A stretch of 64,000 nucleotides of DNA. Source: Magnetospirillum sp. WYHS-4. GTDB taxonomy: Bacteria > Pseudomonadota > Alphaproteobacteria > Rhodospirillales > GLO-3. The stretch lies in contig JAMOBD010000007.1 of the NCBI GenBank assembly GCA_039908345.1, positions 14,743 to 78,742 of the forward strand, given 5' to 3'. The position numbers were made by a program, and so were the translations under genes. Below the pieces are notes generated by a model. It saw only the letters and a program-made list of their open reading frames with translations. It searched no databases and was not told where the DNA came from. Numbering within the stretch: position 1 is the stretch's first letter; every line of letters begins with the position of its first letter. Shown piece by piece: positions 33,663-46,445 of this stretch.

Positions 33663-34883
33663 ATGAGCGACGATCCCGTCCGCGTCCAGTACGAGGCCTA
33701 TCCCTATCCCGCCCGCGATCCCAGGGACGAGGCCAAGCGGCTCGTCACCGGCTCGCCCAGCTACCTGGCCGAGGCGAACCATTACCTGTTCGGTGGCCGG
33801 CGCGACACCGCCAAGCCCTTCCGCGCCCTGGTCGCAGGGGGAGGGACCGGGGATGGGACGATCATGCTCGCCCAGCAGTTGGCCGACGCGGGCGGCCCCG
33901 CCCAGGTGGTCTACACCGACCTGTCGTCCGCGTCCCGCGCCATTGCCGAGGCCCGCGCCAAGGCGCGCGGCCTGACCGACATCCGCTTCGAATCGCTGTC
34001 CATCCTCGATCTGCCGGGCTCGGGGCTCGGGCCCTTCGACTACATCGACTGCTGCGGCGTGCTGCACCACCTGGAAGACCCGGCGGCCGGCCTGAAGGCC
34101 TTGGAAGCGGTTCTGGCCCCCGAGGGCGGTATCGGCATGATGCTTTACGGCGAGTTGGGCCGCATCGGGGTCTACCATGTCCAAGGTATGCTGGGCCTTA
34201 TCGACGACGGCGCCGCGCCGGGGCCTGATCGCCTTGCGCTGGCAAGGAAGCTGCTGGCCCAGTTGCCGCCCACCCACTGGCTGAAGCGCAATCCCTTCGT
34301 CGGCGACCATCTGGACGGCACCGACGCCGGGCTCTACGACCTGCTGTTGCATCGGCGCGACCGCGCCTACCGGGTGCCGGAGATCGCCGCGCTCGCCCGA
34401 TCGGCCGGCCTGGAGGTGGCGGCCTTCGTCGAACCCGCCCGCTACGATCCCGCCGCCTACCTGAGCGACGCCCGCCTGTTGGAGCGCACCGCGGCCCTGC
34501 CGTATCTGGAACGGGCCGCCTTCGCCGAACTGCTGGCCGGCAACCTGCGCAAGCACGTCTTCTATCTGGCCCGGCCGGGCCGTACCGCCGTGGCTGATCC
34601 TTACGACCTGGCGGCGGTGCCGGTGCTACGCGACCTGGACGGGGCCGCCTGGGCCAGGGCCTTCCGGCCGGGCGGCAGCCTGACGGCCAACGTCGACGGC
34701 ATAGGCTTCCGCTTTCCCCTGCCCAACTTGGCTGGGGCCATGGTGGCACGCATGGAAGGGCGGCGCCTTGCCGACATCCAAACCGACCTGGGCCTGGACG
34801 AGGCCACCTTCATCCAAGCCTGGACACCGCTCTACCGGGCCTTCAACGGCCTGTCGAAGCTCTACCTGAGCTTCCGACCATGA
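33663..34883 (+). CDS. class I SAM-dependent methyltransferase
   Basis: Motif I ALVAGGGTGDG; post-I VVYTDLS; CCGVLHHLEDP. The 406-aa protein has a long C-terminal extension. Its stop overlaps the next gene's start (ATGA). Confidence 0.75.
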   Translation: MSDDPVRVQYEAYPYPARDPRDEAKRLVTGSPSYLAEANHYLFGGRRDTAKPFRALVAGGGTGDGTIMLAQQLADAGGPAQVVYTDLSSASRAIAEARAKARGLTDIRFESLSILDLPGSGLGPFDYIDCCGVLHHLEDPAAGLKALEAVLAPEGGIGMMLYGELGRIGVYHVQGMLGLIDDGAAPGPDRLALARKLLAQLPPTHWLKRNPFVGDHLDGTDAGLYDLLLHRRDRAYRVPEIAALARSAGLEVAAFVEPARYDPAAYLSDARLLERTAALPYLERAAFAELLAGNLRKHVFYLARPGRTAVADPYDLAAVPVLRDLDGAAWARAFRPGGSLTANVDGIGFRFPLPNLAGAMVARMEGRRLADIQTDLGLDEATFIQAWTPLYRAFNGLSKLYLSFRP

Positions 34884-37003
34884 CGCTACGCCGCAAGTTC
34901 CTGCTGGTGCTGCTGCCCATCGCTCTGCTGCCCCTGGGACTGGTGGTGCTGCACGACCTGTGGGCGCTACGCGACCTGGGGCGGGACTTGGCGGAACGTT
35001 CCGGCCGCACCCTGGAGGCGAATCTCACCGCCCAGGTCCGCCATGCCATCGATTCAGGGGCCGCCATCCTGCGCCATCAGAAGGAACTGGTGGAATTCGC
35101 CCTGCTGCTGCAAGCCCGCGAAGCGGCTGCCCGCCTGGATCGCCCGCCGCCACCCGTCGAATTCCGCGGTGAAATCCTCTACCCGACCGCCTTCGAGAAC
35201 CGCGAGGGCCGGCGCCCGTCCGGCATCAAGCCCTCCCCCCTGCACCGCATCCTGGGGCCGGACGGCAAGCTGGTTGCCCAGGAAGTCAGCTACGAGGTGC
35301 CCGTCTTCCTCCTGGCCCCTGGTATCGAACCCGAGGCGGTGTCCGAGGACCTCGCCCGTCTGTCCACTCTGCAGCCCGCCTTCCGTGGCCTGGCTCACGG
35401 ACGCGAGGGGTTATTCTACCGCCAATTCGTCACCCTCGATTCGGGTGTGCATGTGGGTTATCCGGGCCACGGCGATTACCCAGTCGGCTACGATCCTCGC
35501 GAAAGGCCCTGGTTCCGAGGGGCCCGCGAGAGTGGCAGCCTGACCTGGAACCGGCCGGTCTTCGACGCTTCCAGCCGACGCCTCGCGGTCACCGTCTCGG
35601 TCCCCGTGATGCGGCGTGACGGGACCATTGCCGGCGTGACCGGCATCGGCCTCGATGCCTTGGGCCTGCTGGACGGCATCAAGGACCGAACCGGCCTGCC
35701 CGACGGGGCCGAGTTCCTGTTGGTCGATCTGGCGGAGCGCGACAAGGGCGGCGAGGGCATCCGGATCATGGTGCGGCGGTCCGACATCGACCGGGACTGG
35801 CAAAGCCTGCCGGCCACCGAATGGCTGGAAAGCCCGGACGGCAAGACGCTGGCCGGGGTGCGCGCCGATCTGGCGGCCGGCAGGGCCGGGGTGCGCCAGT
35901 TACCCTTGGCGGGTGCCGACACTCTTTGGGCCTATGCGCCGGTGGACGATTTCGATACGGCGCTGCTGATCCTGCTGCCGGTCCGGGAAATCGCCCAGCA
36001 GGCGGCCGTGGCCGAGGCCGCCGTTTGGGAGACGGCACGTCGCCAAGCCATCGTGACCACGCTTTTCGCGCTGGTCATGACGGGTATCGCCTTGGTGCTC
36101 GCCGTCGCCGGAGCGCGGGCCGTGACCCTGCCGGTGCGTCGCCTCGACGAGGCCGCCCGCCGCTTGGCTGCCGGGGACCTGGATGTCCATGCCGATGTCG
36201 GGTCGCGCGACGAACTGGGCCGGCTGGCGGAAACCTTCAACGCCATGGTGCCGCGGCTCAAGGATCAGGTCCGGCTCAGCCAGTCCCTGGCCCTGGCCAG
36301 CGAAGTGCAGAACAACCTGCTGCCCGCCGCACCGCCAGACTTCGCCGGATTCGACTTGGCGGGCGCCAGCTTGTCCTGCGACGAAACCGGAGGCGATTAC
36401 TTCGACTTCATCCATCTGCCCGGTAACCGCCTGGGGGTGGCGGTAGGCGACGTCACCGGGCACGGCGTCCCCGCCGCGCTCTTGATGGCAACGGCGCGTG
36501 GCCTGATCCGCGCCCGCGCCGACCGGGCCACGGGGCTTGCCGACCTGCTGGACGGGGTCAATCTGCAGTTGGCCCAGGACGCCCTGGCCGGCCGCTTCAT
36601 GACCCTCGCCATCCTGCTGCTGGAAGCCGGCTCGCGCCGCCTCGCCTGGGCCAACGCCGGCCATGAGCCCATCCTTGTCTTCAACCCCGACGGGGGCGAG
36701 TTTTCCGAGTTGGCGGGCGAGGATCTGCCGCTCGGAATCGACGGCGGCTGGCGCTTCGCCGACAGCGTGACCGACGACTTGGCCACGGGTTCGATCCTGG
36801 TCATGGCCACCGATGGCGTGACCGAGTTGCGCAACGGTGAAGGTGCCATGTTCGGCCGCACCCGCCTGCAGGACACCGTCAAGGGCCACGCCCAAGGCAG
36901 CGCCTCCGATATCCTCACCGCGGTCAAGCGCAAGGCCATCGCCTTCGCCACCGGCACCCCCATCCGCGACGACGCCACCCTGGTGGTGGTGAAGATCCGG
37001 TAG
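34880..37003 (+). CDS. membrane sensor phosphatase: Cache-like periplasmic domain - HAMP - PP2C/SpoIIE (RsbU-type)
   Basis: N-terminal TM LLVLLPIALLPLGLVVL. Cache-like block YDPRERPWFRGA. HAMP VTLPVRRLDEAARRLAAGDLD...DELGRLAETFNAM. PP2C block ETGGDYFDF...GVAVGDVTGHGVPAALLMA...ATDGVTE. Confidence 0.85.
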   Translation: MTLRRKFLLVLLPIALLPLGLVVLHDLWALRDLGRDLAERSGRTLEANLTAQVRHAIDSGAAILRHQKELVEFALLLQAREAAARLDRPPPPVEFRGEILYPTAFENREGRRPSGIKPSPLHRILGPDGKLVAQEVSYEVPVFLLAPGIEPEAVSEDLARLSTLQPAFRGLAHGREGLFYRQFVTLDSGVHVGYPGHGDYPVGYDPRERPWFRGARESGSLTWNRPVFDASSRRLAVTVSVPVMRRDGTIAGVTGIGLDALGLLDGIKDRTGLPDGAEFLLVDLAERDKGGEGIRIMVRRSDIDRDWQSLPATEWLESPDGKTLAGVRADLAAGRAGVRQLPLAGADTLWAYAPVDDFDTALLILLPVREIAQQAAVAEAAVWETARRQAIVTTLFALVMTGIALVLAVAGARAVTLPVRRLDEAARRLAAGDLDVHADVGSRDELGRLAETFNAMVPRLKDQVRLSQSLALASEVQNNLLPAAPPDFAGFDLAGASLSCDETGGDYFDFIHLPGNRLGVAVGDVTGHGVPAALLMATARGLIRARADRATGLADLLDGVNLQLAQDALAGRFMTLAILLLEAGSRRLAWANAGHEPILVFNPDGGEFSELAGEDLPLGIDGGWRFADSVTDDLATGSILVMATDGVTELRNGEGAMFGRTRLQDTVKGHAQGSASDILTAVKRKAIAFATGTPIRDDATLVVVKIR

Positions 37004-38985: not shown

Positions 38986-40155
<1,170 letters not shown>

Positions 40156-40315
40156 GATGTACTCCCATCCTTACAGATGGGTCGCGGTCCGTTGGGGGAC
40201 CGTGGCCCGCCGACGCTTATAGGGAACCGATTTCACGTCGTCAACGAGGATTTTTTGCGGTGCGAAAAAACGGGAGACTCACGCTTTCCAAGTCTGTATT
40301 CCGCCCCGCATCGGG

Positions 40316-41542
40316 CTACCGCCCCAGCCCCAGAAGCTGGCCGGCCGCCTCGCGGGCGAAGGGCAGGTTATGGGTAAGCAATAGACCAAGCGAAACGAAG
40401 GTCACCGTGGTGGCGACGGACAAGGCCCGGAAGGCGGAACTCGCGGACAGACGGTCGGACAGTTCCGGCGGCACCGCCCGCCGCCCCACCACCAGCGCCG
40501 ACATGCCGGCACCGTGGTAGAGCCCATAGAGCAGCCAGTTGAGCCCGTCGCCGTGCCAAGCCCCCATGAAGAAGAAGGTGACGAAGATGGCCGCCAAGTT
40601 GGCTCCCACGTCCGACAGCCAGCGAGCCTTCAGCCGGAACCAGCGCAGCAGGACGAAGTAGATGTAGTCCCGGCACCATTGGGCGAAGGTGATGTGCCAA
40701 CGGTTCCAGAAGTCCTGCAGATTGCGCGACAGGAAGGGAAAGTTGAAGTTCTCCGGCAGACGAATGCCGAACAGGCGGGCCACGGCGATGGCCACGTCCG
40801 AATAGCCCGAGAAGTCGAAATAGATGTAGGCGAACTGGCAATAGAGCCCGGCCAGGATCGCCGCCGGTCCCATGCCCTCGGTCGATCCCACCCCGATCAG
40901 GGAATTGGCGCGGAAGACCTCGGCCAGCAGCAGCACCTTGACGACGCCCCCGGCCAGGCGCAACGCGATGTCCCGGTAATCGTCGGCTCCGAGGACGGGA
41001 AGCGGGCCGCCCAAGTCGCGGACGAAGTCCTGGAACCGGTTGATCGGCCCCGCCAGGTAGGCGGGGAAGAACAGCAGGAAGGCGGCCGCCGCGAGCGGGC
41101 TCGGCGCCTCCCGTCCTCGTTTAGCCTGCACCGTCAGGTCGATGGCGCGAAAGGTCATGTAAGACAGGCCCAGCCATTCGAAGCCCGATAGGCCCGGCAG
41201 GGCAGCCATCCCGCCCAGCAGCAGCGAGGAATAATAGCGGTACTTGACCAGCAGGAGCACGAACACCGCCAACAGGATCGCACCGGAGACGGCGAGGGCG
41301 TCCGCCTTGAGACGGGGAACGCGCCCGATGGCCGCGGCGGCCCCGGCGGCCACGGCCGCATAGGCGGCGGTGGCCAGCAGGAAGGCCGGGTGGGCCTCCA
41401 ACTGGCCGAGGAACAGAAGGCTCGAACCGATCAGCAACGCGGGCCGGACGGCCGCCGGCAGGCGTGGCACGGCGAGGCGGAAGAGTGTCGCCGCCGCCAG
41501 AACCTCGGCGAAGAAGACCAGGCTGGTGGCGAAGTTGGTCAT
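40316..41542 (-). CDS. MBOAT-family membrane O-acyltransferase (DltB/AlgI-like)
   Basis: This is the C-terminal 408 aa of the 734-aa track ORF. The ATG at 41542 overlaps the upstream stop (ATGA). Conserved His blocks are FWNRWHITFAQWCRDYIY and FFMGAWHG. Confidence 0.88.
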   Translation of the reverse strand: MTNFATSLVFFAEVLAAATLFRLAVPRLPAAVRPALLIGSSLLFLGQLEAHPAFLLATAAYAAVAAGAAAAIGRVPRLKADALAVSGAILLAVFVLLLVKYRYYSSLLLGGMAALPGLSGFEWLGLSYMTFRAIDLTVQAKRGREAPSPLAAAAFLLFFPAYLAGPINRFQDFVRDLGGPLPVLGADDYRDIALRLAGGVVKVLLLAEVFRANSLIGVGSTEGMGPAAILAGLYCQFAYIYFDFSGYSDVAIAVARLFGIRLPENFNFPFLSRNLQDFWNRWHITFAQWCRDYIYFVLLRWFRLKARWLSDVGANLAAIFVTFFFMGAWHGDGLNWLLYGLYHGAGMSALVVGRRAVPPELSDRLSASSAFRALSVATTVTFVSLGLLLTHNLPFAREAAGQLLGLGR

Positions 41543-43143
41543 TCCTGCTCGATCCGGTCGCGCAGTTTGCGGCGGTCCACCTTGCCGTTGTCGTTGCGCG
41601 GGAAGTCGGCCAGGAAGCCGAAGCGGGCCGGAATCATGTAGGCCGGCAGCTGGTGGCCCAGAAAGGCCTGCAACGCCTCGGCCGCCACGCCCTCGTGACC
41701 ATGTTCGGGCACCACGCCGGCCAGCAGTTCCGTGCCCGACGACCCCAGGACCACGACGGCGTCGTGGACCTCGGGGGCGGAACGCAGCACCGCCTCGATC
41801 TCGCCCAGTTCCACCCGGTAGCCACGCACCTTCACCTGGCTGTCGCCACGCCCGACCCAGGTCAGGATGCCCGCCGCATCGACCGTCGCCAAGTCGCCGG
41901 TGTCGTACATCACGGTCCCCAGATCGCGCTTGAAGGGATTGGGCCGGAAGGCCCGCGCCGTGATATCCGGAGCCCGCCAATAGCCGTGAGCGAGTTGGCT
42001 GCCGGCGATCATCAACCGGCCCACCTCGCCGGGGGCCGCCAATTCGTCGGTATCGGCCCGCAGGACGAACAGTTCGCAATCGGTACTCGCCCGGCCGATG
42101 GGAACGGGCCGGCCGGCCTCGACCGGACCGTCGGCGTCGACCAGGAAGGCGGTGCAGAAGATCGCAGCCTCGGTAGGCCCATAGGTGTTCCAGATGGGCA
42201 CGCCGGGTTGCAGGCGCCGCCATTCCAACGCCCATTCGGCGGGCAGGGCCTCGCCGATGAACAGGGCGACCCGCAGATCGGGAAAGGGGCCGGCGGCCAA
42301 CTGGCGCGACTTTATCATCATGCCGATGGTGCCGGGAACGGAGCACCAGACAGAAATCCTCTGGCTGCGGATGAAGTCGCCCGGGAAGGTCAGATCCTTG
42401 CCCCCCAGGATCGGGCAGACGGTTCCGCCGGCCAGGAAGCCGGCGAAGATGTCGAACATGGCAACGTCGAAGGTCAGGCGCGAATGGTTGGCGAAGCGGT
42501 CGCCGGGCGCCAGCCGCCACAGATCGACGCTCCAGCGCAGCACCGACATTACCGCCCGGTGCGACAGCATGACGCCTTTCGGCCTGCCGGTGGTTCCCGA
42601 GGTGAAGAGGATATAGGCGAGGTCCTCCTCTCGGTTTTGCGGCACCAGGCGGGCGTGGGGGGCGGCTTCCAGGTCGTCGGCCCCGAACAGGTGCGAAGCC
42701 GGGATGGCCGGCCCCGCGTCCGGACGTCCGGCGACATCGAGGACCACCACCATGGGCGAGGCCTCGACCGCCGCATGGCCCAGCACGTCGGCGAGCAGCG
42801 GCAGGTGCTCGCCAAGGGTGACCACCGCCACCGGCCCTGCCTGCCCCACGATATCGGCCAAGCGGAAGGCCGGAAAGGCGGGACTGAGGGGCACGAAGCA
42901 GGCATCCGCCGCCAGGGTTCCCAGCAGCCCGGCATAGGCCTGGGCGCCGTTGTCCATCAGGACGGCGACCCGGTCGTTGCGCCCTACCCCCAGTTCGCGC
43001 AGCAAAGCCCCCAGGCGGCGCATGCGGTCGCGCAGTTCGCGGTAGCTCCAGACGGAACCGTACTCGTCCACCGCCGGGGCGTCCGGCGTCGCAGCCGCCC
43101 AGGCCTCGACCGCCTCGTGCAGGAGAGACGGGCGGACCATCAC
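41539..43143 (-). CDS. stand-alone adenylation enzyme (DltA-like amino acid--carrier protein ligase)
   Basis: 534 aa. LAYILFTSGTTGRPKGV (A3), NTYGPTEA (A5), YDTGDL (A7), GRGDSQVKVRGYRVELGEIE (A8) and NDNGKVDRRKL (A10). There is no condensation or thioesterase domain. Confidence 0.88.
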   Translation of the reverse strand: MMVRPSLLHEAVEAWAAATPDAPAVDEYGSVWSYRELRDRMRRLGALLRELGVGRNDRVAVLMDNGAQAYAGLLGTLAADACFVPLSPAFPAFRLADIVGQAGPVAVVTLGEHLPLLADVLGHAAVEASPMVVVLDVAGRPDAGPAIPASHLFGADDLEAAPHARLVPQNREEDLAYILFTSGTTGRPKGVMLSHRAVMSVLRWSVDLWRLAPGDRFANHSRLTFDVAMFDIFAGFLAGGTVCPILGGKDLTFPGDFIRSQRISVWCSVPGTIGMMIKSRQLAAGPFPDLRVALFIGEALPAEWALEWRRLQPGVPIWNTYGPTEAAIFCTAFLVDADGPVEAGRPVPIGRASTDCELFVLRADTDELAAPGEVGRLMIAGSQLAHGYWRAPDITARAFRPNPFKRDLGTVMYDTGDLATVDAAGILTWVGRGDSQVKVRGYRVELGEIEAVLRSAPEVHDAVVVLGSSGTELLAGVVPEHGHEGVAAEALQAFLGHQLPAYMIPARFGFLADFPRNDNGKVDRRKLRDRIEQE

Positions 43144-43370
43144 GCCACGCCCTCCCGAAGGAAGCCCAGCAAGGCCGGGACGTCGGTCAACTGGCCGAAC
43201 ATGTCGGGCGGCACCTGGACGCCGAAGCGCAGTTCGAGCGCCAGGATCAGATCGACCTGGGCCATGGAATCCCAGCCGGGCGTCTTGCCCATGGCCGCAT
43301 CGACACCGATCTCCTTGCGCCGCAACTGTTGGCCTAGAAAGGCCAGCAGGTCGGATTCGCTGATCGCCAT
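43140..43370 (-). CDS. acyl/peptidyl carrier protein (DltC-like)
   Basis: Track ORF 43140..43421. Met at 43370 (MAISESDLLAFL) is preceded by GGGGAGGG. The phosphopantetheine site is GWDSMAQVDL. The stop overlaps the adenylase start. Confidence 0.85.
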   Translation of the reverse strand: MAISESDLLAFLGQQLRRKEIGVDAAMGKTPGWDSMAQVDLILALELRFGVQVPPDMFGQLTDVPALLGFLREGVA

Positions 43371-43386
43371 CGGTATTCCCTCCCCT

Positions 43387-43533
43387 TTAGAACCGCGAAT
43401 AATAGGATGCCGTGCCACCACCCGCCGTCTTGTCGCGACGGTGCTCGGCCGTCAGCAGGAACAGCGCCACCGCCACCCCGAGACCGGTCAGGAAATGAAG
43501 CAGCCGCGGACGGTGGCCGAGCCAGGCTTTCAT
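43387..43533 (-). CDS. 48-aa single-pass membrane micro-protein, DltX-like candidate acyl shuttle
   Basis: Hidden in the tail of a 525-aa out-of-frame track ORF. MKAWLGHRPRLLHFLTGLGVAVALFLLTAEHRRDKTAGGGTASYYSRF. The ATG overlaps the upstream stop (ATGA), and the TAA lies 16 nt before the carrier protein gene. The C-terminal Tyr-x-x-Phe-COOH resembles my recollection of the DltX motif. Confidence 0.5.
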   Translation of the reverse strand: MKAWLGHRPRLLHFLTGLGVAVALFLLTAEHRRDKTAGGGTASYYSRF

Positions 43534-44816
43534 GGCGTTCTCCCCGTCGCCGGCAGGGATAGCCGCCATTCCGCCTGGCTGATGAGTTGTTCCCGCACCG
43601 CCTCCGATTCCGCCTCGGACAACATCGCCACCGGCATGGGCAGGGAGGGCAGGGCCGCCTCCCAGCGAGCCGGCGGCAGAAAGCGCGATGCAGGCCCCGC
43701 CACAATACGCCGCTCCGCCAAGTCGGCCAGCAGAATCCGGGCTTGCTTCAGCTTGCCGCCGAAGTTGAACAGATAGCCGCTGGCGAAGTGCTTCTCCGCA
43801 TCGTAGACCTGATCGCAGGCCGACAAACCGTGGCCCATCGCATGGTCGACGACAGCCGCGTTGGGGAAGGCGGCCAGCACCGCCTTGATGCGCTCGACGA
43901 ACCGGGGCCGAAACTCGGCCGCGTAGCGCGCCTCGGAGAGGTTGAGGTGAGGCGGCACGTAATAGACGAAGCGTACCCCGTGTTCCGCCGCCAAGCCGGC
44001 CGCGAGGCGCAGCCACGCCTGCCAAGTGGCCTCGCCGCCGGCGCCGATCCAGTACTGCCCGGCGGGCATCGGGGTTCGATTGCGGGCCTGGCAGGCGGCG
44101 GGATTGTCGTAGTTGGCCCGGACCTGTTCGAACAGCGTCCGCGCTTCGTGGTGCGCCCGCTGCATCGGCCAGACGGTGAAGGCGACGCTGTCGCGCAGGC
44201 CCTGCCAACGGCGGGCCACCCCGTCTGCCCAGGCGGACAGGCGGTCCGTGGCCGACGGCACCACCGCCTGGGCATGGCCCTGGGACGCGAGAAGCGCCGC
44301 GCGGAAGGTCTTCGCCTCCTCGGCCAGCCGCGGATATTCGGCCTCGATAGCCGCCAATACCGGCAGGGCCGCCAGGGTATCGGACGGACGGGTGAAGGTT
44401 TGCAGGGAGCCGGGATTGTTGATGTAGATCAGGCTGCGCACGTCGCCCTGGCGGACCGCCTGGTAGACCGAGATCAGATGGCGTTCGAAGTCCACGTCGG
44501 GCCGGCCGAAACCGTAGAAGCGCTCCTCTCCCCCACCCTTCTCGTCCAGGATGGCGTTCAGGGCGGCATGCAGGGTGGCCTTCTGGCTGTTGCGGGTCTC
44601 GTGACGGCCGGAAACCATGTAGGCTTCCGTGGTCCAGGTCCAGCAGCCGGTGCCGACGATCAGGTGCTTGGGCTGGGAACGAAAGTTCCAGGGATAGGTA
44701 TCGAGGTAATAGTTGTCCCAGCCGTCCCGTTCGATACGCCAAGGGGGCGCCCAAGCCAGCAGGACGACCAGAGGCAAGGCCATACCCAGAAGAAAGGAGG
44801 CCCAGCGCGCCCTCAT
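43530..44816 (-). CDS. N-terminally anchored extracytoplasmic protein in the DltD position (possible SGNH/AlgX-like transferase)
   Basis: This is the C-terminal 428 aa of the 809-aa track ORF. The ATG overlaps the upstream stop (ATGA). It has a signal-anchor (ASFLLGMALPLVVLLAWA) and a D-x-x-H-like block (YDAEKHF) near the C-terminus. I could not identify a clear block-I Ser, so the function is inferred mainly from context. Confidence 0.6.
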   Translation of the reverse strand: MRARWASFLLGMALPLVVLLAWAPPWRIERDGWDNYYLDTYPWNFRSQPKHLIVGTGCWTWTTEAYMVSGRHETRNSQKATLHAALNAILDEKGGGEERFYGFGRPDVDFERHLISVYQAVRQGDVRSLIYINNPGSLQTFTRPSDTLAALPVLAAIEAEYPRLAEEAKTFRAALLASQGHAQAVVPSATDRLSAWADGVARRWQGLRDSVAFTVWPMQRAHHEARTLFEQVRANYDNPAACQARNRTPMPAGQYWIGAGGEATWQAWLRLAAGLAAEHGVRFVYYVPPHLNLSEARYAAEFRPRFVERIKAVLAAFPNAAVVDHAMGHGLSACDQVYDAEKHFASGYLFNFGGKLKQARILLADLAERRIVAGPASRFLPPARWEAALPSLPMPVAMLSEAESEAVREQLISQAEWRLSLPATGRTP

Positions 44817-45571
44817 CCGAGGTAGTCGCCGTGCCGGGCCACCAGGGCCCCATGGACATGCCGCAAATGGGCCGCCACCTTGTCTCGGTCGACCAGACGC
44901 CGTCCCAGGTAGGCCAGTTCCCAGGCCTGCCAGAAAGCTTGGCCCGAGAGATTTCCGAAACCATCCCATGCCAGCAGCTTTTCCCGGTAGGAGTCCCAGA
45001 AGGCCTTGATGCCCTGGGTATGGAGGACGATCAACGGATGGCGTAGCGCCTGGGCCAGGGCGTCGTCGCCGGCCAGGGCTTCGCGGATCAGCGTCGGCCC
45101 CGGCGCGTCGTTCAGTGGACAGAGCGACAGGCCCTCCTTCAACTCGAAGGTCGCGTCCAGGATGGCGGCCGGGACGACCTCCTCGATGGCGCCGTCGACG
45201 CCGATCACCGGCACGAACGGATAGGTGCGGCACAACAGGGGCTTGGTGAACAGCTCGTTGCAACGCCCGAGATGGCGGCAGGGAACGTGGCGGAGCATGA
45301 TCGGCCTCGGCCCGCCGAAGTCGAAGATCATGGGCTGGATCTCCTTGCCCTCGTCCTCGCCGCAGATCCTGTGGCCGTTGGCCTTCAGCCAGGCGTATTC
45401 GTCGTCCAGATAAACCACGATGGTCCCCTGCCCGCCGTTGGGCAGCAGGCGGAAGCGGAAATCCGGATGACTGTTGGAACAGCAGAATCCGCCGCAGCCT
45501 TTCCAGCAGTCCGGCACCGAAATGAGTGGGCGGCTGTGGATGGTATGCCAATCCACCGGTTCGAAAGACAT
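44813..45571 (-). CDS. cysteine-cluster protein (YkgJ/CxxCxxCC-like?)
   Basis: 252 aa. CWKGCGGFCC near the N-terminus, plus further conserved-looking Cys (HVPCRHLGRC, LLCRTYPF). First gene of the overlapping gene chain. Confidence 0.6.
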   Translation of the reverse strand: MSFEPVDWHTIHSRPLISVPDCWKGCGGFCCSNSHPDFRFRLLPNGGQGTIVVYLDDEYAWLKANGHRICGEDEGKEIQPMIFDFGGPRPIMLRHVPCRHLGRCNELFTKPLLCRTYPFVPVIGVDGAIEEVVPAAILDATFELKEGLSLCPLNDAPGPTLIREALAGDDALAQALRHPLIVLHTQGIKAFWDSYREKLLAWDGFGNLSGQAFWQAWELAYLGRRLVDRDKVAAHLRHVHGALVARHGDYLG

Positions 45572-45643
45572 GCGACGGGGGACTCCGGAAGGCGAGAGAG
45601 GATCTTACTCTAGCAAGCTGTGGCGCGGAAAGCCAACGAAGGC

Positions 45644-46393
45644 CTAAAGAAGATGCCAGAACCTTTCCGCGCCTCCGTCCGGCCGCAAGCGGCGGCCGCA
45701 TTTCAGGGTGAGTGCGCTGACGCTCCCGTCGCCGTCCTGGGACCGGTAGCAGTCCATGCCCCTTTGCTTGACGGTCTCCATGTCCGGGTAGGCGACTTCC
45801 ACCGCCTCCGCCCGCAACCGGTAACGCGCGGCCACTTCGGCGACGAAGCGGGGGATATCCTCCGGAGCGTAGTCGATGGCATAGGGAAGGTCCTCCCACA
45901 GGTAGACCGCCTCGGCGATGCCGGGCCCCAGCCCCAGTCCGCCGTCGCGAACCGCCCAATGGTCGGCGTGGCGCCCCAGGCCCACCGGAAGCAGCAGGGC
46001 AGTGCCCGCCTCGCCCGCCAATTCCTTCAGGTGTCCGGCCACCGCTTGTGCCAGGACGGCATCCTCGGGCCCGCCGCGGGCAGGGTCGAAGACCGCTTCC
46101 AGGGTGCCGCGGCGCACGATGGCGTCAAGATAGTCGAAATAGTGCAGCCCACAGGCAGGCCCCAGCAGGGCCGCATAGGACTCCTCCTCCCGCCGCCGCA
46201 GGGCCGTGGGTCCGTCCAGGTCGCCGTTCCGTTGGCCGTCGACGTAGAAGGTGCGGGTGCAGAAGGTGGCGATGGCGATCGCCCGTCCTCGCCGAACGGC
46301 TTCCCCCAGCATCCCGCCGCAAGCGAAGGCCGCGTCGTCGGGATGGGGGGCCGCGACCAGGAAGCGTCGATGCCGGAAGATGCTTTCGTCCAT
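45644..46393 (-). CDS. PIG-L/LmbE-family N-acetylglucosaminyl deacetylase
   Basis: LVAAPHPDDAAFACGG (PHPDD metal motif) and GRHADHWAV (H-x-D-H). It lies 72 nt upstream of the Cys-cluster gene on the same strand. Confidence 0.85.
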   Translation of the reverse strand: MDESIFRHRRFLVAAPHPDDAAFACGGMLGEAVRRGRAIAIATFCTRTFYVDGQRNGDLDGPTALRRREEESYAALLGPACGLHYFDYLDAIVRRGTLEAVFDPARGGPEDAVLAQAVAGHLKELAGEAGTALLLPVGLGRHADHWAVRDGGLGLGPGIAEAVYLWEDLPYAIDYAPEDIPRFVAEVAARYRLRAEAVEVAYPDMETVKQRGMDCYRSQDGDGSVSALTLKCGRRLRPDGGAERFWHLL

Positions 46394-46408: not shown

Positions 46409-46445
46409 AAAAAGAAAAGGCCCCGGAAGCGGGTGCTTCCGGGGC
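46409..46445 (-). terminator. rho-independent terminator of hppA
   Basis: On the minus strand: GCCCCGGAAGC-ACCC-GCTTCCGGGGC followed by CTTTTCTTTTTG. It lies 24 nt after the hppA stop. Confidence 0.75.

What the first reader, a model, noticed from the sequence alone, without database searches (positions are those of the whole stretch)
40316..46393. Translationally coupled Dlt-like acylation operon (adenylase, carrier protein, MBOAT, micro-protein, anchored transferase-position protein) in a diderm-type genome
All genes are on the minus strand, in this order. PIG-L deacetylase (45644..46393). A 72-nt gap. Cys-cluster protein (44813..45571). A 428-aa signal-anchored protein (43530..44816). A 48-aa micro-protein (43387..43533). 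A carrier protein with a GWDSM serine (43140..43370). A stand-alone adenylation enzyme with A3/A5/A7/A8/A10 cores (41539..43143). An MBOAT with both conserved His blocks (40316..41542). Four junctions are start/stop overlaps (44813-44816, 43530-43533, 43140-43143, 41539-41542), and the fifth is a 16-nt gap carrying GGGGAGGG, so the six genes are almost certainly co-translated. The component logic matches Gram-positive DltX-A-B-C-D D-alanylation of teichoic acids. However, the gene order is D-position, X-like, C, A, B, two extra genes are attached, and the surrounding gene content is that of an alphaproteobacterium, which should have no teichoic acid. The activated substrate and the acceptor polymer (LPS, capsule, periplasmic glucan or a protein) are unknown.
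Basis: partly seen in the sequence, partly recalled or inferred. Interest (0 to 1): 0.8.

Follow-up and report, generated by a model that had tools for sequence, protein, structure and literature searches.

The report
Dlt-like aminoacylation operon, new transferase
A Magnetospirillum genome carries a rare, self-contained gene module that resembles the Gram-positive D-alanylation (Dlt) machinery, but its outer transferase is an unrelated cysteine-bearing protein and it has an extra metal-cluster protein, so it probably attaches a small amino acid to an unidentified envelope molecule of double-membraned bacteria.

Summary
The window comes from the Magnetospirillum sp. WYHS-4 MAG.

Three products fit known families:
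- A DltB-like MBOAT with both catalytic His residues and no C-terminal shuttle motif.
- A stand-alone amino-acid adenylase.
- A small carrier protein.

The 48-aa ORF is real. A one-helix microprotein ending Y-x-x-F-stop occurs once in each of the 15 related loci with enough sequence to look. It keeps the tyrosine and terminal Phe of the DltX "acyl shuttle" (FXYXXF), but it is not a Pfam DltX member.

The 428-aa anchored protein is not DltD. It has no Pfam hit and hhalign gives 2% probability. It belongs to a rare family that always sits next to an MBOAT. It has an α/β fold with weak SGNH resemblance and a Cys (Ser in 4 of 49 members) where SGNH enzymes carry their nucleophile.

The Cys-cluster protein is equally rare and co-occurs in almost every locus. 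PIG-L is present in only 3 loci.

The six-gene core recurs in Alphaproteobacteria, Desulfovibrio, Planctomycetes and Nitrospinae, in unrelated genomic contexts. In two loci the adenylase is replaced by a tRNA-synthetase-like amino acid:carrier-protein ligase.

I found no paper describing it. Verdict: a new variant of the Dlt/MBOAT acylation kind. The acceptor is unknown.

The parts
40316..41542 (-). DltB-like MBOAT (408 aa), with conserved His283 (RWH) and His330 (WHG). It lacks the extra C-terminal helices and Tyr motif of the AlgI/PatA type.
   Evidence: PF03062 scores 63.5 bits. TIGR04091 DltB scores 205 bits, below the 375 cutoff, over residues 47-389. PDB DltB 6bug matches at 2e-34. It is 35% identical to a canonical DltB in L014. 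The C-terminus reads ...LLGLGR with no Tyr motif.
41539..43143 (-). Stand-alone amino-acid adenylation enzyme (534 aa). Its specificity code is DVFCLITIFK.
   Evidence: TIGR01733 scores 359, above its 317 cutoff. DltA models score 253-261 bits, below their cutoffs. PDB single-domain hits: PltF 235 bits, DltA 219 bits. The code was extracted against verified PheA and DltA references. Asp235 and Lys517 equivalents are kept.
43140..43370 (-). Carrier protein (76 aa). The phosphopantetheine site is Ser35 in GWDSM.
   Evidence: PF00550 scores 22.7 bits against a cutoff of 20.8. DltC models score only 16-18 bits. It is conserved next to the ligase in all loci.
43387..43533 (-). Microprotein of 48 aa with a single transmembrane helix and a C-terminus SYYSRF-stop. 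Tyr45 (codon 43399-43401) is proposed as the acyl-shuttle residue, making this a DltX analogue.
   Evidence: Exactly one TM ORF ending Y-x-x-F-stop was found in each of 15 related loci, for example SYYSQF, TFYGGF, TVYGKF, VNYGNF and FYGDF. The DltX motif FXYXXF and its role come from PMC12148441. There is no PF12459 hit, while the control DltX from L014 hits at 31 bits.
43530..44816 (-). Signal-anchored periplasmic protein of 428 aa from a new family (called X here). It has an α/β core with a long helical insert. Cys58 (codon 44643-44645) is the candidate nucleophile. It occupies the DltD position.
   Evidence: No Pfam or NCBIfam hit. There are 28 homologues among 5.8 billion proteins and 65 representatives among 1.84 billion. 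The AF2 model has pLDDT 88.9 and pTM 0.90. Foldseek against PDB gave nothing at E<=1e-3, and the highest-probability hits are SGNH esterases. Cys is present in 43 of 49 members and Ser in 4 of 49, after strand β1. hhalign against DltD gives 2% probability. The protein is next to an MBOAT in every locus.
44813..45571 (-). Cytoplasmic Cys-cluster protein (252 aa) with eight conserved Cys residues (22, 26, 30, 31, 98, 104, 114, 151). It is a probable metal-binding accessory subunit.
   Evidence: There are 23 homologues, on the same contigs as X. Conserved motifs are CWxxCGGGFCC and KPLLCRxYPF. No Pfam hit for any of the 23 family members or for three more distant copies. The AF2 model has pLDDT 86.4 and no PDB fold match. 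It is present in 14 of the 15 adequately covered loci and absent from the P0052 locus.
45644..46393 (-). PIG-L/LmbE-type deacetylase (249 aa). It is the first gene of the transcription unit here and a clade-specific accessory.
   Evidence: PF02585 scores 34.6 bits against a cutoff of 28.2. HPDD lies at residue 17 and HADH at residue 142. A homologue sits next to the module only in L006 and L007.
46420..46445 (-). Intrinsic terminator of the upstream hppA gene. It marks the 5' boundary of the unit.
   Evidence: The stem has 11 pairs (9 G-C) and is followed by CTTTTCTTTT.
40160..40212 (-). serC leader RNA. It marks the 3' boundary; the next unit is serC-serA.
   Evidence: Rfam RF00517 scores 55.1 bits against a gathering score of 35.

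Best explanation
This is a Dlt-type trans-membrane aminoacylation pathway adapted to diderm bacteria.

Proposed steps:
1. In the cytoplasm, the adenylase activates a small α-amino acid and loads it as a thioester on Ser35-phosphopantetheine of the carrier protein. The amino acid is most likely alanine (possibly D-Ala) or glycine.
2. The DltB-like MBOAT docks the loaded carrier and uses its conserved His residues to move the aminoacyl group through the membrane. The group lands on Tyr45 in the C-terminal SYYSRF tail of the 48-aa microprotein.
3. The tail swings to the periplasmic domain of the anchored 428-aa protein. That protein takes the group on Cys58 as a thioester and passes it to a hydroxyl or amino group of an envelope acceptor.
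4. The acceptor is most likely a glycan (LPS, O-antigen, capsule or exopolysaccharide sugar).

The cytoplasmic Cys-cluster protein is an obligate-looking accessory of unknown role, perhaps metal-dependent tailoring or docking at the carrier/MBOAT step. PIG-L, where present, may expose an amino sugar on the acceptor precursor.

Shown by analysis here:
- The gene content, family assignments and translational coupling.
- Conservation of the six-gene core.
- Invariance of the Tyr and terminal Phe in the microprotein.
- The Cys/Ser exchange in the 428-aa family.
- Retention of the α-amino-acid residues in the adenylase pocket.

Inferred only: every chemical transfer step, the identity of the cargo, the acceptor, and the roles of the Cys-cluster protein and PIG-L.
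For: MBOAT:
- It resembles DltB over nearly its full length and keeps both catalytic His residues.
- Like DltB, it lacks a fused C-terminal shuttle motif.

Microprotein:
- A separate TM microprotein with invariant Tyr at position -4 and Phe at position -1 is present in every related locus that could be checked. This holds across roughly 20-100% identity of the partner protein.
- It matches the DltX mechanism described in PMC12148441.

Adenylase:
- It passes the amino-acid adenylation domain cutoff.
- It keeps the Asp235 and Lys517 equivalents.
- The wider family's code, DLFF[LI]C[LI]IAK, shares D, L, C6, V/I8, A9 and K with DltA (DLMTMCTVAK and DLMVWCTVAK), including the Cys269 equivalent.
- In L003 and L015 the adenylase is swapped for a Bll0957-type amino acid--[ACP] ligase (3mey, 1.3e-31). 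This argues independently for an amino-acid cargo on a carrier protein.

The 428-aa protein (X):
- It has an N-terminal anchor and a confident α/β model.
- It is always adjacent to an MBOAT.
- It carries Cys or Ser at the helix N-terminus after β1, where SGNH enzymes have their nucleophile.
- The best-probability structural hits are SGNH esterases.

Acceptor:
- Two distant loci, L002 and L015, sit inside amino-sugar and glycosyltransferase clusters.

Operon structure:
- The genes are tightly coupled and bounded by a terminator and the serC leader.
Against: - No component reaches the equivalog cutoff of its Dlt counterpart.
- The microprotein does not hit PF12459 and lacks the first Phe of FXYXXF.
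- X shows no significant similarity to DltD or to any solved structure.
- X has no universally conserved His to complete a triad. A catalytic role for Cys58 is therefore inferred only. A free periplasmic Cys would also need protection from oxidation.
- By score, the adenylase is as close to NRPS stand-alone A domains as to DltA.
- The window clade's code, DVFCLITIFK, differs from DltA at the Cys269 position. The cargo in this particular genome is therefore uncertain.
- Most loci, including this window, have no glycan genes nearby. L003 has a PBP4-type peptidase instead.
- No experiment exists for any member.
Confidence: 0.65

Rival explanations
1. It is an ordinary dlt operon acquired from a Gram-positive donor, and it D-alanylates a teichoic-acid-like polymer.
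For: The MBOAT's best family is DltB. The gene order D-position, X, C, A, B resembles the C-D-X-A-B order of a canonical operon in L014. The wider family's A-domain code is DltA-like.
Against: The DltD and DltX Pfam models, which do recognise the L014 control, miss every member here. hhalign between X and DltD gives 2% probability. There is an extra conserved Cys-cluster gene. Every host that could be named is a diderm lineage: Alphaproteobacteria, Desulfovibrio, Planctomycetes and Nitrospinae. Identity to real DltA and DltB is only 30-35%. GC content matches the host genome.
Confidence: 0.05
2. It is the loading part of a non-ribosomal peptide, lipopeptide or siderophore pathway. The MBOAT would acylate or export a small molecule.
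For: The adenylase scores as high against NRPS A domains as against DltA. aa:CP ligases elsewhere accompany acyl-CoA-dehydrogenase-type tailoring genes. Radical SAM genes flank the module in L008 and L001.
Against: The module and its flanks contain no condensation, thioesterase, PKS or transporter gene in any locus. The conserved partners are a DltB-like MBOAT, a shuttle-type microprotein and a periplasmic anchored protein. These are hallmarks of envelope polymer acylation.
Confidence: 0.07
3. The pathway works as in the best explanation up to the microprotein, but the 428-aa protein is not the final transferase. It could be an acceptor-binding scaffold, or an esterase that trims or proof-reads the modification. 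Transfer to the acceptor would then be direct or carried out by an unlinked enzyme.
For: X has no conserved His or complete triad. It has no significant structural match to transferases. SGNH folds are mostly hydrolases (PMC12148441).
Against: X co-occurs strictly with the MBOAT and microprotein across the whole family. The Cys/Ser alternation falls at the nucleophile position. The core contains no other periplasmic candidate.
Confidence: 0.15
4. The chemistry is the same, but the acceptor is lipid A, a membrane lipid or peptidoglycan rather than a surface glycan. This would be a functional analogue of Vibrio AlmEFG glycine addition to lipid A, or of peptidoglycan O-acylation by PatAB.
For: Most loci lack glycan genes. 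L003 has a PBP4-type DD-peptidase directly downstream. AlmE and AlmF are likewise an adenylase plus carrier pair in a diderm bacterium (the AlmE structure 4oxi is among the PDB hits; its role is from my own knowledge).
Against: There is no AlmG-type acyltransferase, and no direct evidence for any acceptor. Two loci are embedded in sugar-nucleotide and glycosyltransferase clusters.
Confidence: 0.25

Closest known systems
DltXABCD D-alanylation of teichoic acids (Firmicutes; mechanism of Schultz, Snow and Walker 2023, as summarised in PMC12148441)
   Same: Both have an adenylase and a small carrier protein. Both have a short DltB-type MBOAT without a fused shuttle motif. Both have a separate one-helix microprotein whose C-terminus carries Tyr at position -4 and a terminal Phe. 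Both have an N-terminally anchored extracytoplasmic partner. Both operons are tightly coupled.
   Different: No component reaches the Dlt equivalog thresholds. The partner is not DltD (no PF04914 hit, hhalign 2%) and has Cys rather than Ser at the presumed nucleophile. The microprotein is not in PF12459, and its motif is x-x-Y-x-x-F rather than F-x-Y-x-x-F. There is an additional conserved cytoplasmic Cys-cluster protein. The hosts are diderm bacteria without teichoic acids. In some loci the ligase is an aaRS-like enzyme.
Dlt-related loci of Gram-negative bacteria (Bordetella dra locus; Dickeya/Pectobacterium dlt genes)
   Same: These are Dlt-type machinery operating in a diderm envelope on a non-teichoic acceptor. 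Papers mentioning them were found; the details are from my own knowledge.
   Different: To my knowledge those loci encode recognisable DltA, DltB, DltC and DltD homologues. Here the DltD position is filled by an unrelated family and a Cys-cluster protein is added.
MBOAT-SGNH O-acetylation pairs (PatA/PatB, AlgI/AlgJ/AlgX, WssH/WssI)
   Same: In both, an MBOAT moves an acyl group to a Tyr in a C-terminal hexapeptide. A periplasmic α/β partner then transfers it to a polymer in diderm bacteria (PMC12148441).
   Different: Those systems use acetyl-CoA, have no carrier protein or adenylase, and fuse the shuttle motif to the MBOAT. The cited paper states that MBOAT pathways other than Dlt lack a DltX-like microprotein. 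This module is a counter-example.
Vibrio cholerae AlmEFG (glycine addition to lipid A)
   Same: Both have an adenylase plus carrier protein that activates a small amino acid for envelope modification in a diderm bacterium.
   Different: AlmG is a cytoplasmic-face lipid A acyltransferase, not an MBOAT. AlmEFG has no microprotein and no periplasmic partner. (The role of AlmEFG is from my own knowledge. The AlmE structure 4oxi scores 166 bits.)
Amino acid:[carrier protein] ligases (Bll0957 type; PDB 3mey)
   Same: In loci L003 and L015 a homologue of this enzyme replaces the adenylase in the same module.
   Different: It is not present in this window. Most plasmid-borne homologues accompany acyl-CoA-dehydrogenase-type genes, not MBOATs.

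Membership tests
Dlt pathway (DltB) | MBOAT fold with two catalytic His blocks, a short form without a fused C-terminal Tyr motif, and a score above the TIGR04091 equivalog cutoff | tested here: inconclusive
   PF03062 is met (63.5 > 27). His283 and His330 are present and there is no C-terminal motif. TIGR04091 scores 205 bits, below the 375 cutoff. Identity to a canonical DltB is 35%.
Dlt pathway (DltA) | D-alanine--carrier protein ligase equivalog score and the D-Ala pocket including Cys269 | tested here: not met
   TIGR01734 scores 253.5, below 559.85. NF003417 scores 260.7, below 476. The window code is DVFCLITIFK against DltA DLMTMCTVAK, with Ile at the Cys269 position. More distant members of the module (L002, L012, L037, L038) do keep this Cys.
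Dlt pathway (DltC) | A match to the DltC equivalog model | tested here: not met
   TIGR01688 scores 16.3, below 52.35. NF003464 scores 18.1, below 68. The generic PP-binding model is met (22.7 > 20.8).
Dlt pathway (DltX) | A PF12459 match, a single TM helix, and the C-terminal FXYXXF acyl-shuttle motif | tested here: inconclusive
   None of 9 microproteins hits PF12459 at E<=10, while the control DltX from L014 scores 31 bits. The architecture, Tyr at -4 and the terminal Phe are invariant in every related locus that could be checked. The first Phe of the motif is absent.
Dlt pathway (DltD) | A PF04914 match or homology to DltD, and a Ser-His-Asp triad | tested here: not met
   None of 49 family members has a DltD hit. 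hhalign against a 12-sequence DltD alignment gives 2% probability, E 0.024. No DltD chain is among the 50 Foldseek PDB hits listed. Cys replaces Ser and there is no invariant His.
SGNH/GDSL hydrolase-like fold (partner of bacterial MBOATs) | A five-stranded α/β/α fold with the nucleophile after β1 (block I), Gly (block II), Asn (block III) and Asp-x-x-His (block V) | tested here: inconclusive
Non-ribosomal peptide synthetase system | Condensation and thioesterase domains accompanying the A domain and carrier | tested here: not met
   The A domain and carrier are present. No C or TE domain appears in the window cluster or in any related locus.
PIG-L / LmbE deacetylase | A PF02585 match above the gathering score, with the metal-binding HPDD and HxDH motifs | tested here: met
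   The score is 34.6, above 28.2. HPDD lies at residue 17 and HADH at residue 142.
YkgJ-type 'CxxCxxCC' cysteine-cluster proteins (PF03692) | A match to PF03692 | tested here: not met
   None of the 23 family members or three more distant copies hits it at E<=1. The resemblance between the CWxxCGGFCC ... KPLLCRxYPF motifs and that family is from memory only.
Amino acid:[carrier protein] ligase (in related loci L003 and L015, not in this window) | Homology to the Bll0957 catalytic core | tested here: met
   The L003 protein matches 3mey at 1.3e-31 over residues 137-387. The L015 gene has a recorded tRNA-synt_2b (weak) hit in the same position.

The most novel reading that the evidence does not exclude
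This would be a previously unrecognised, phylum-spanning class of MBOAT pathway. A carrier-protein-borne amino acid is passed through a free DltX-like tyrosine shuttle to a thiol-based (Cys) periplasmic transferase of a new fold family. The pathway needs a new cytoplasmic metal-cluster protein and aminoacylates an envelope glycan or lipid of diderm bacteria. It would extend the acyl-Tyr shuttle paradigm beyond SGNH and Ser chemistry. It would also give at least some orphan tRNA-synthetase-like aa:CP ligases a physiological role.
Probability: 0.5. Interest if true: 0.8.

Novelty: new variant of a known kind. Interest (0 to 1): 0.7.

Why it matters
Aminoacylation of envelope polymers sets surface charge, resistance to cationic peptides and host interaction in Gram-positive bacteria. 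The mechanism of that pathway, with its MBOAT, tyrosine shuttle and SGNH transferase, was only recently solved.

The current literature states that only Dlt uses a separate shuttle microprotein. It also treats the extracytoplasmic partner as an SGNH serine enzyme.

This module differs in four ways:
- It has a second, independent microprotein-using lineage.
- It has an unrelated partner with Cys at the presumed nucleophile position.
- It has an extra metal-cluster subunit.
- Its amino-acid ligases are interchangeable (an ANL adenylase or an aaRS-like enzyme).

It occurs in diderm phyla where no such modification is known. It points to an undiscovered envelope decoration. It also offers a compact six-gene system for testing how general the acyl-Tyr relay is.

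Tried and rejected
Structure searches:
- Foldseek gave no significant match for the 428-aa protein or the Cys-cluster protein.
- Profile searches of both families against PDB sequences gave only noise.

Family scans:
- Pfam scans of all family members gave no DltD, SGNH or PF03692 membership for X or the Cys protein.
- None of the 9 microproteins tested hit the DltX model.
- hhalign of X against a single DltD (0.15% probability) and against a DltD alignment (2%) found no homology.

A misleading score, rejected:
- The top PDB score for the adenylase was linear gramicidin synthase at 404 bits. This looked like a glycine-domain match, but it is the sum of two A domains in one chain.

Context searches:
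- tblastn of X against plasmids found nothing.
- aa:CP ligase homologues on plasmids lie in a different context, next to acyl-CoA dehydrogenase genes. The module is therefore not the general explanation for that enzyme family.
- None of this window's flanking genes (serA, serC, hppA, thiL) was found in any other locus.

Literature:
- Searches for this system found nothing.
- The primary Dlt mechanism paper (PMC10664464) is not held.

Limits:
- I could not define a catalytic triad for X without model coordinates.

Full report
OBSERVATION.
- The junctions were read from the sequence. ATGA overlaps lie at 44813-44816, 43530-43533 and 41539-41542.
- The carrier/adenylase junction at 43140-43143 is GTGATG.
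- The gap before the carrier gene is 16 nt, AGGGGAGGGAATACCG.
- A strong intrinsic terminator (11-bp stem, T-tract) ends the upstream hppA gene at 46445-46420, about 25 nt before the PIG-L start.
- The Rfam serC leader lies at 40160-40212, just after the MBOAT stop.
- The unit is therefore bounded as PIG-L through MBOAT.
- Exact matches identify the source as the Magnetospirillum sp. WYHS-4 MAG.

RECOGNISABLE COMPONENTS.
- MBOAT (408 aa). It passes PF03062. It aligns with the DltB model TIGR04091 over residues 47-389 at 205 bits, below the 375-bit equivalog cutoff. Its only solved relatives are DltB structures (2e-34), with both catalytic His blocks conserved (His283, His330). It ends ...LLGLGR, without the extra helices and Tyr motif that AlgI/PatA-type MBOATs carry (PMC12148441).
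- Adenylase. It passes the amino-acid adenylation domain model (359 > 317) but not the DltA models (253-261 bits). Among single-domain solved structures it is about equally close to PltF (235 bits), other stand-alone A domains and DltA (219 bits). The 404-bit hit to linear gramicidin synthase is the sum of two A domains.
- Carrier protein. It passes PP-binding (Ser35 in GWDSM) but not the DltC models.
- PIG-L. It passes PF02585 and has HPDD and HADH motifs.

MICROPROTEIN. The 48-aa ORF has one hydrophobic helix and ends SYYSRF-stop.
- I scanned six frames of the window and the first ten related loci for ORFs with a hydrophobic stretch ending Y-x-x-F-stop.
- This returned exactly one ORF per locus, always inside the module, and nothing else in about 215 kb.
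- The same holds in loci fetched later. Observed tails are SYYSQF, GYYSQF, TFYGGF, TVYGKF, TVYGVF, VNYGNF, TFYGQF, TFYGDF and MYYGDF.
- PMC12148441 describes DltX as a membrane microprotein. Its invariant Tyr, in a C-terminal FXYXXF motif, receives D-Ala from DltB and hands it to DltD.
- That paper also states that other MBOAT pathways lack such a microprotein.
- Here Tyr at -4 and the terminal Phe are invariant, and the first Phe is not.
- None of nine microproteins tested hits the DltX Pfam model, whereas a genuine DltX from an Anaerolineales dlt operon (L014) does at 31 bits.
- The microprotein is therefore a DltX analogue by architecture and motif. It is not a demonstrable family member.

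THE 428-aa PROTEIN (X).
- It has no Pfam or NCBIfam hit.
- It has only 28 relatives among 5.8 billion proteins and 65 representatives among 1.84 billion 50%-identity clusters.
- AF2 with the family alignment gives a confident model (pLDDT 88.9, pTM 0.90). The model has an N-terminal helix (residues 2-22, preceded by Arg2 and Arg4), a five-stranded α/β core, and a long helical insertion at about residues 144-278.
- Foldseek against PDB finds nothing at E<=1e-3. The hits with the highest probability are SGNH esterases: 3mil (0.85, TM 0.48), 1fxw (0.72) and 2wab (0.69).
- In a 49-member alignment spanning about 17-66% identity, the residue at the N-terminus of the helix after strand β1 is Cys in 43 members and Ser in 4. 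The local motif is K-h-h-h-h-[GST]-x-C, often IGSCE. This is the position and context of the SGNH/DltD nucleophile (DltD in L014 reads IYGASE).
- D324, D335, K357, N87, P289 and G354 are also strongly conserved.
- No His is universal. The best is H113, in 34 of 49 members.
- Tests against DltD failed. No PF04914 hit in any member. hhalign gives 0.15% probability against one DltD and 2% against a 12-sequence DltD alignment built from metagenomic relatives.
- X is therefore a separate family, at most a very remote SGNH-like derivative. Cys58 is a plausible but unproven catalytic nucleophile.

THE CYS-CLUSTER PROTEIN.
- It is equally rare, with 23 relatives found on the same contigs as X.
- It has no signal sequence.
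- It has eight conserved Cys residues in CWxxCGGGFCC ... C98xxxGxC104 ... KPLLC114RxYPF ... C151.
- It gives a confident AF2 model with no PDB fold match.
- It has no Pfam membership, including PF03692, which its motifs recalled to me.
- Its function is unknown. Metal binding is inferred from the Cys pattern only.

CONSERVATION AS A UNIT. The six genes are the Cys protein, X, the microprotein, the carrier, the ligase and the MBOAT.
- They recur together in MAGs of Rhodomicrobium, Magnetospirillum, other Alphaproteobacteria and Desulfovibrio, and in unnamed metagenomic contigs (L001-L010).
- They recur in a distant contig, L011.
- They recur in loci L037 and L038, whose MBOATs (P0174, P0169) are named as from a Planctomycetes and a Nitrospinae MAG. 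Both have the order X-micro-Cys-CP-A-MBOAT.
- One locus (P0052) has the other five genes without the Cys protein.
- Short contigs L012 and L013 still show MBOAT next to X.
- PIG-L accompanies the module only in this window, L006 and L007.
- None of this window's flanking genes (serA, serC, hppA, thiL) was found in any other locus. The module therefore behaves as a self-contained accessory unit.

CARGO.
- The ten specificity-pocket residues were extracted by alignment to PheA and B. subtilis DltA. I first verified those reference sequences against PDB entries 1amu and 3e7w. The PheA control returned DAWTIAAICK.
- The window and its six close relatives share DVFCLITIFK.
- More distant members have DLFFLCLIAK, DLFFICIIAK, DLFFICLIAK, DLLFLCLVAK and DVFFLALIVK.
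- DltA has DLMTMCTVAK (B. subtilis) and DLMVWCTVAK (L014).
- Every adenylase aligned keeps the Asp and Lys that bind the α-amino and carboxylate groups. The pockets are lined with bulky hydrophobic residues.
- Most distant members share D, L, Cys6, V/I8, A9 and K with DltA. This includes the Cys that, from my knowledge of the DltA structures, selects D-Ala.
- In two loci (L003, L015) the adenylase is replaced, in the same module, by a class II tRNA-synthetase-like protein.
- The L003 copy is homologous to Bll0957, a solved amino acid--[acyl-carrier-protein] ligase (1.3e-31).
- The L015 gene has only a weak tRNA-synt_2b hit on record in the same position.
- I recall the Bll0957 enzyme family as specific for Gly and Ala.
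- Together this supports a small α-amino acid, probably Ala/D-Ala or Gly.
- The window clade has diverged at pocket positions 4, 6, 7 and 9, so its exact substrate is open.

ACCEPTOR. The acceptor is not determined.
- L002 lies among GFO_IDH_MocA, hexapeptide-transferase, DegT aminotransferase and GT2 genes.
- L015 lies among similar genes plus epimerases, a sulfotransferase and a GT2. This suggests a glycan containing amino sugars.
- L003 has a PBP4-type DD-peptidase downstream.
- Other loci, including this window, give no clue.
- Where PIG-L is present, it could de-N-acetylate a GlcNAc-type precursor. This is speculation.

MECHANISM. I propose the Dlt relay with a substituted last enzyme.
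1. The adenylase loads the carrier protein.
2. The MBOAT transfers the aminoacyl group to Tyr45 of the microprotein on the periplasmic side.
3. The tail delivers it to Cys58 of X, which passes it to the acceptor.

The component set, its coupling and its conservation are shown. Each chemical step is inferred by analogy with DltXABCD and PatAB.

Weak points:
- X has no complete catalytic triad.
- A periplasmic thiol would be exposed to oxidation.
- The roles of the Cys-cluster protein and PIG-L are unknown.

COMPARISON AND NOVELTY.
- The module works like Dlt but fails the family tests for DltA, DltC and DltD. The tests are inconclusive for DltB and DltX.
- It differs from PatAB and AlgIJFX by using a carrier protein and a free microprotein.
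- It differs from AlmEFG by using an MBOAT.
- It differs from Gram-negative dlt/dra loci by its partner proteins.
- Literature searches found no description of it.
- I classify it as a new variant of a known kind. It contains two new protein families, and the ligase module can be exchanged.

Noticed in passing
window 40160-40212 (-): A serC leader RNA (Rfam RF00517, 55 bits) lies directly downstream of the MBOAT stop codon and upstream of serC-serA. A TTGACG...CTATAA promoter-like sequence lies just before it.
   Followed up: partly
window 46420-46445 (-): A very strong intrinsic terminator after hppA lies only about 25 nt from the PIG-L start codon. This leaves almost no room for a promoter. 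The 72-nt PIG-L/Cys-protein gap contains TTGGCT...TAGAGT-like hexamers that were not scored by the scan.
   Followed up: partly
L003 4319-5497 and L015 5685-6689: In two distant versions of the module, the ANL adenylase is replaced by a tRNA-synthetase-like gene. The L003 copy matches the amino acid:[carrier protein] ligase Bll0957 (PDB 3mey, 1.3e-31). The L015 copy has only a weak tRNA-synt_2b hit on record.
   Followed up: yes
plasmid records H1-H15: aa:CP ligase homologues on Azospirillum, Rhizobium and Streptomyces replicons sit next to acyl-CoA dehydrogenase-family genes. This is a different pathway context from the MBOAT module.
   Followed up: no
L014 1737-6828: An Anaerolineales MAG carries a canonical dltC-dltD-dltX-dltA-dltB operon, followed by a polysaccharide deacetylase and two FemAB-family genes. 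I used it as a positive control.
   Followed up: partly
L038 8001-9698: The MBOAT of the locus assigned to a Nitrospinae MAG is 565 aa, about 150 aa longer than the others. The extension was not examined.
   Followed up: no
L008 1108-3777; L001 17448-20397: Radical SAM genes (B12-binding and SPASM types) lie beside the module in a Magnetospirillum MAG and a Desulfovibrio MAG. This may be coincidence or a tailoring link.
   Followed up: no
L010 9815-12304: The adenylase region of this locus is broken into several frames. This is probably due to assembly or sequencing errors in the MAG.
   Followed up: no
window 40001-44000: AT skew rises to +0.16 to +0.20 across the MBOAT-adenylase region. It is near zero in most of the window, though two other bins exceed ±0.12, while GC content is unchanged.
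   Followed up: no
window 34880-37003 (+): A 707-aa membrane sensor protein has, by eye, a PP2C/SpoIIE-like phosphatase C-terminus. It appears unrelated to the finding and was not analysed.
   Followed up: no
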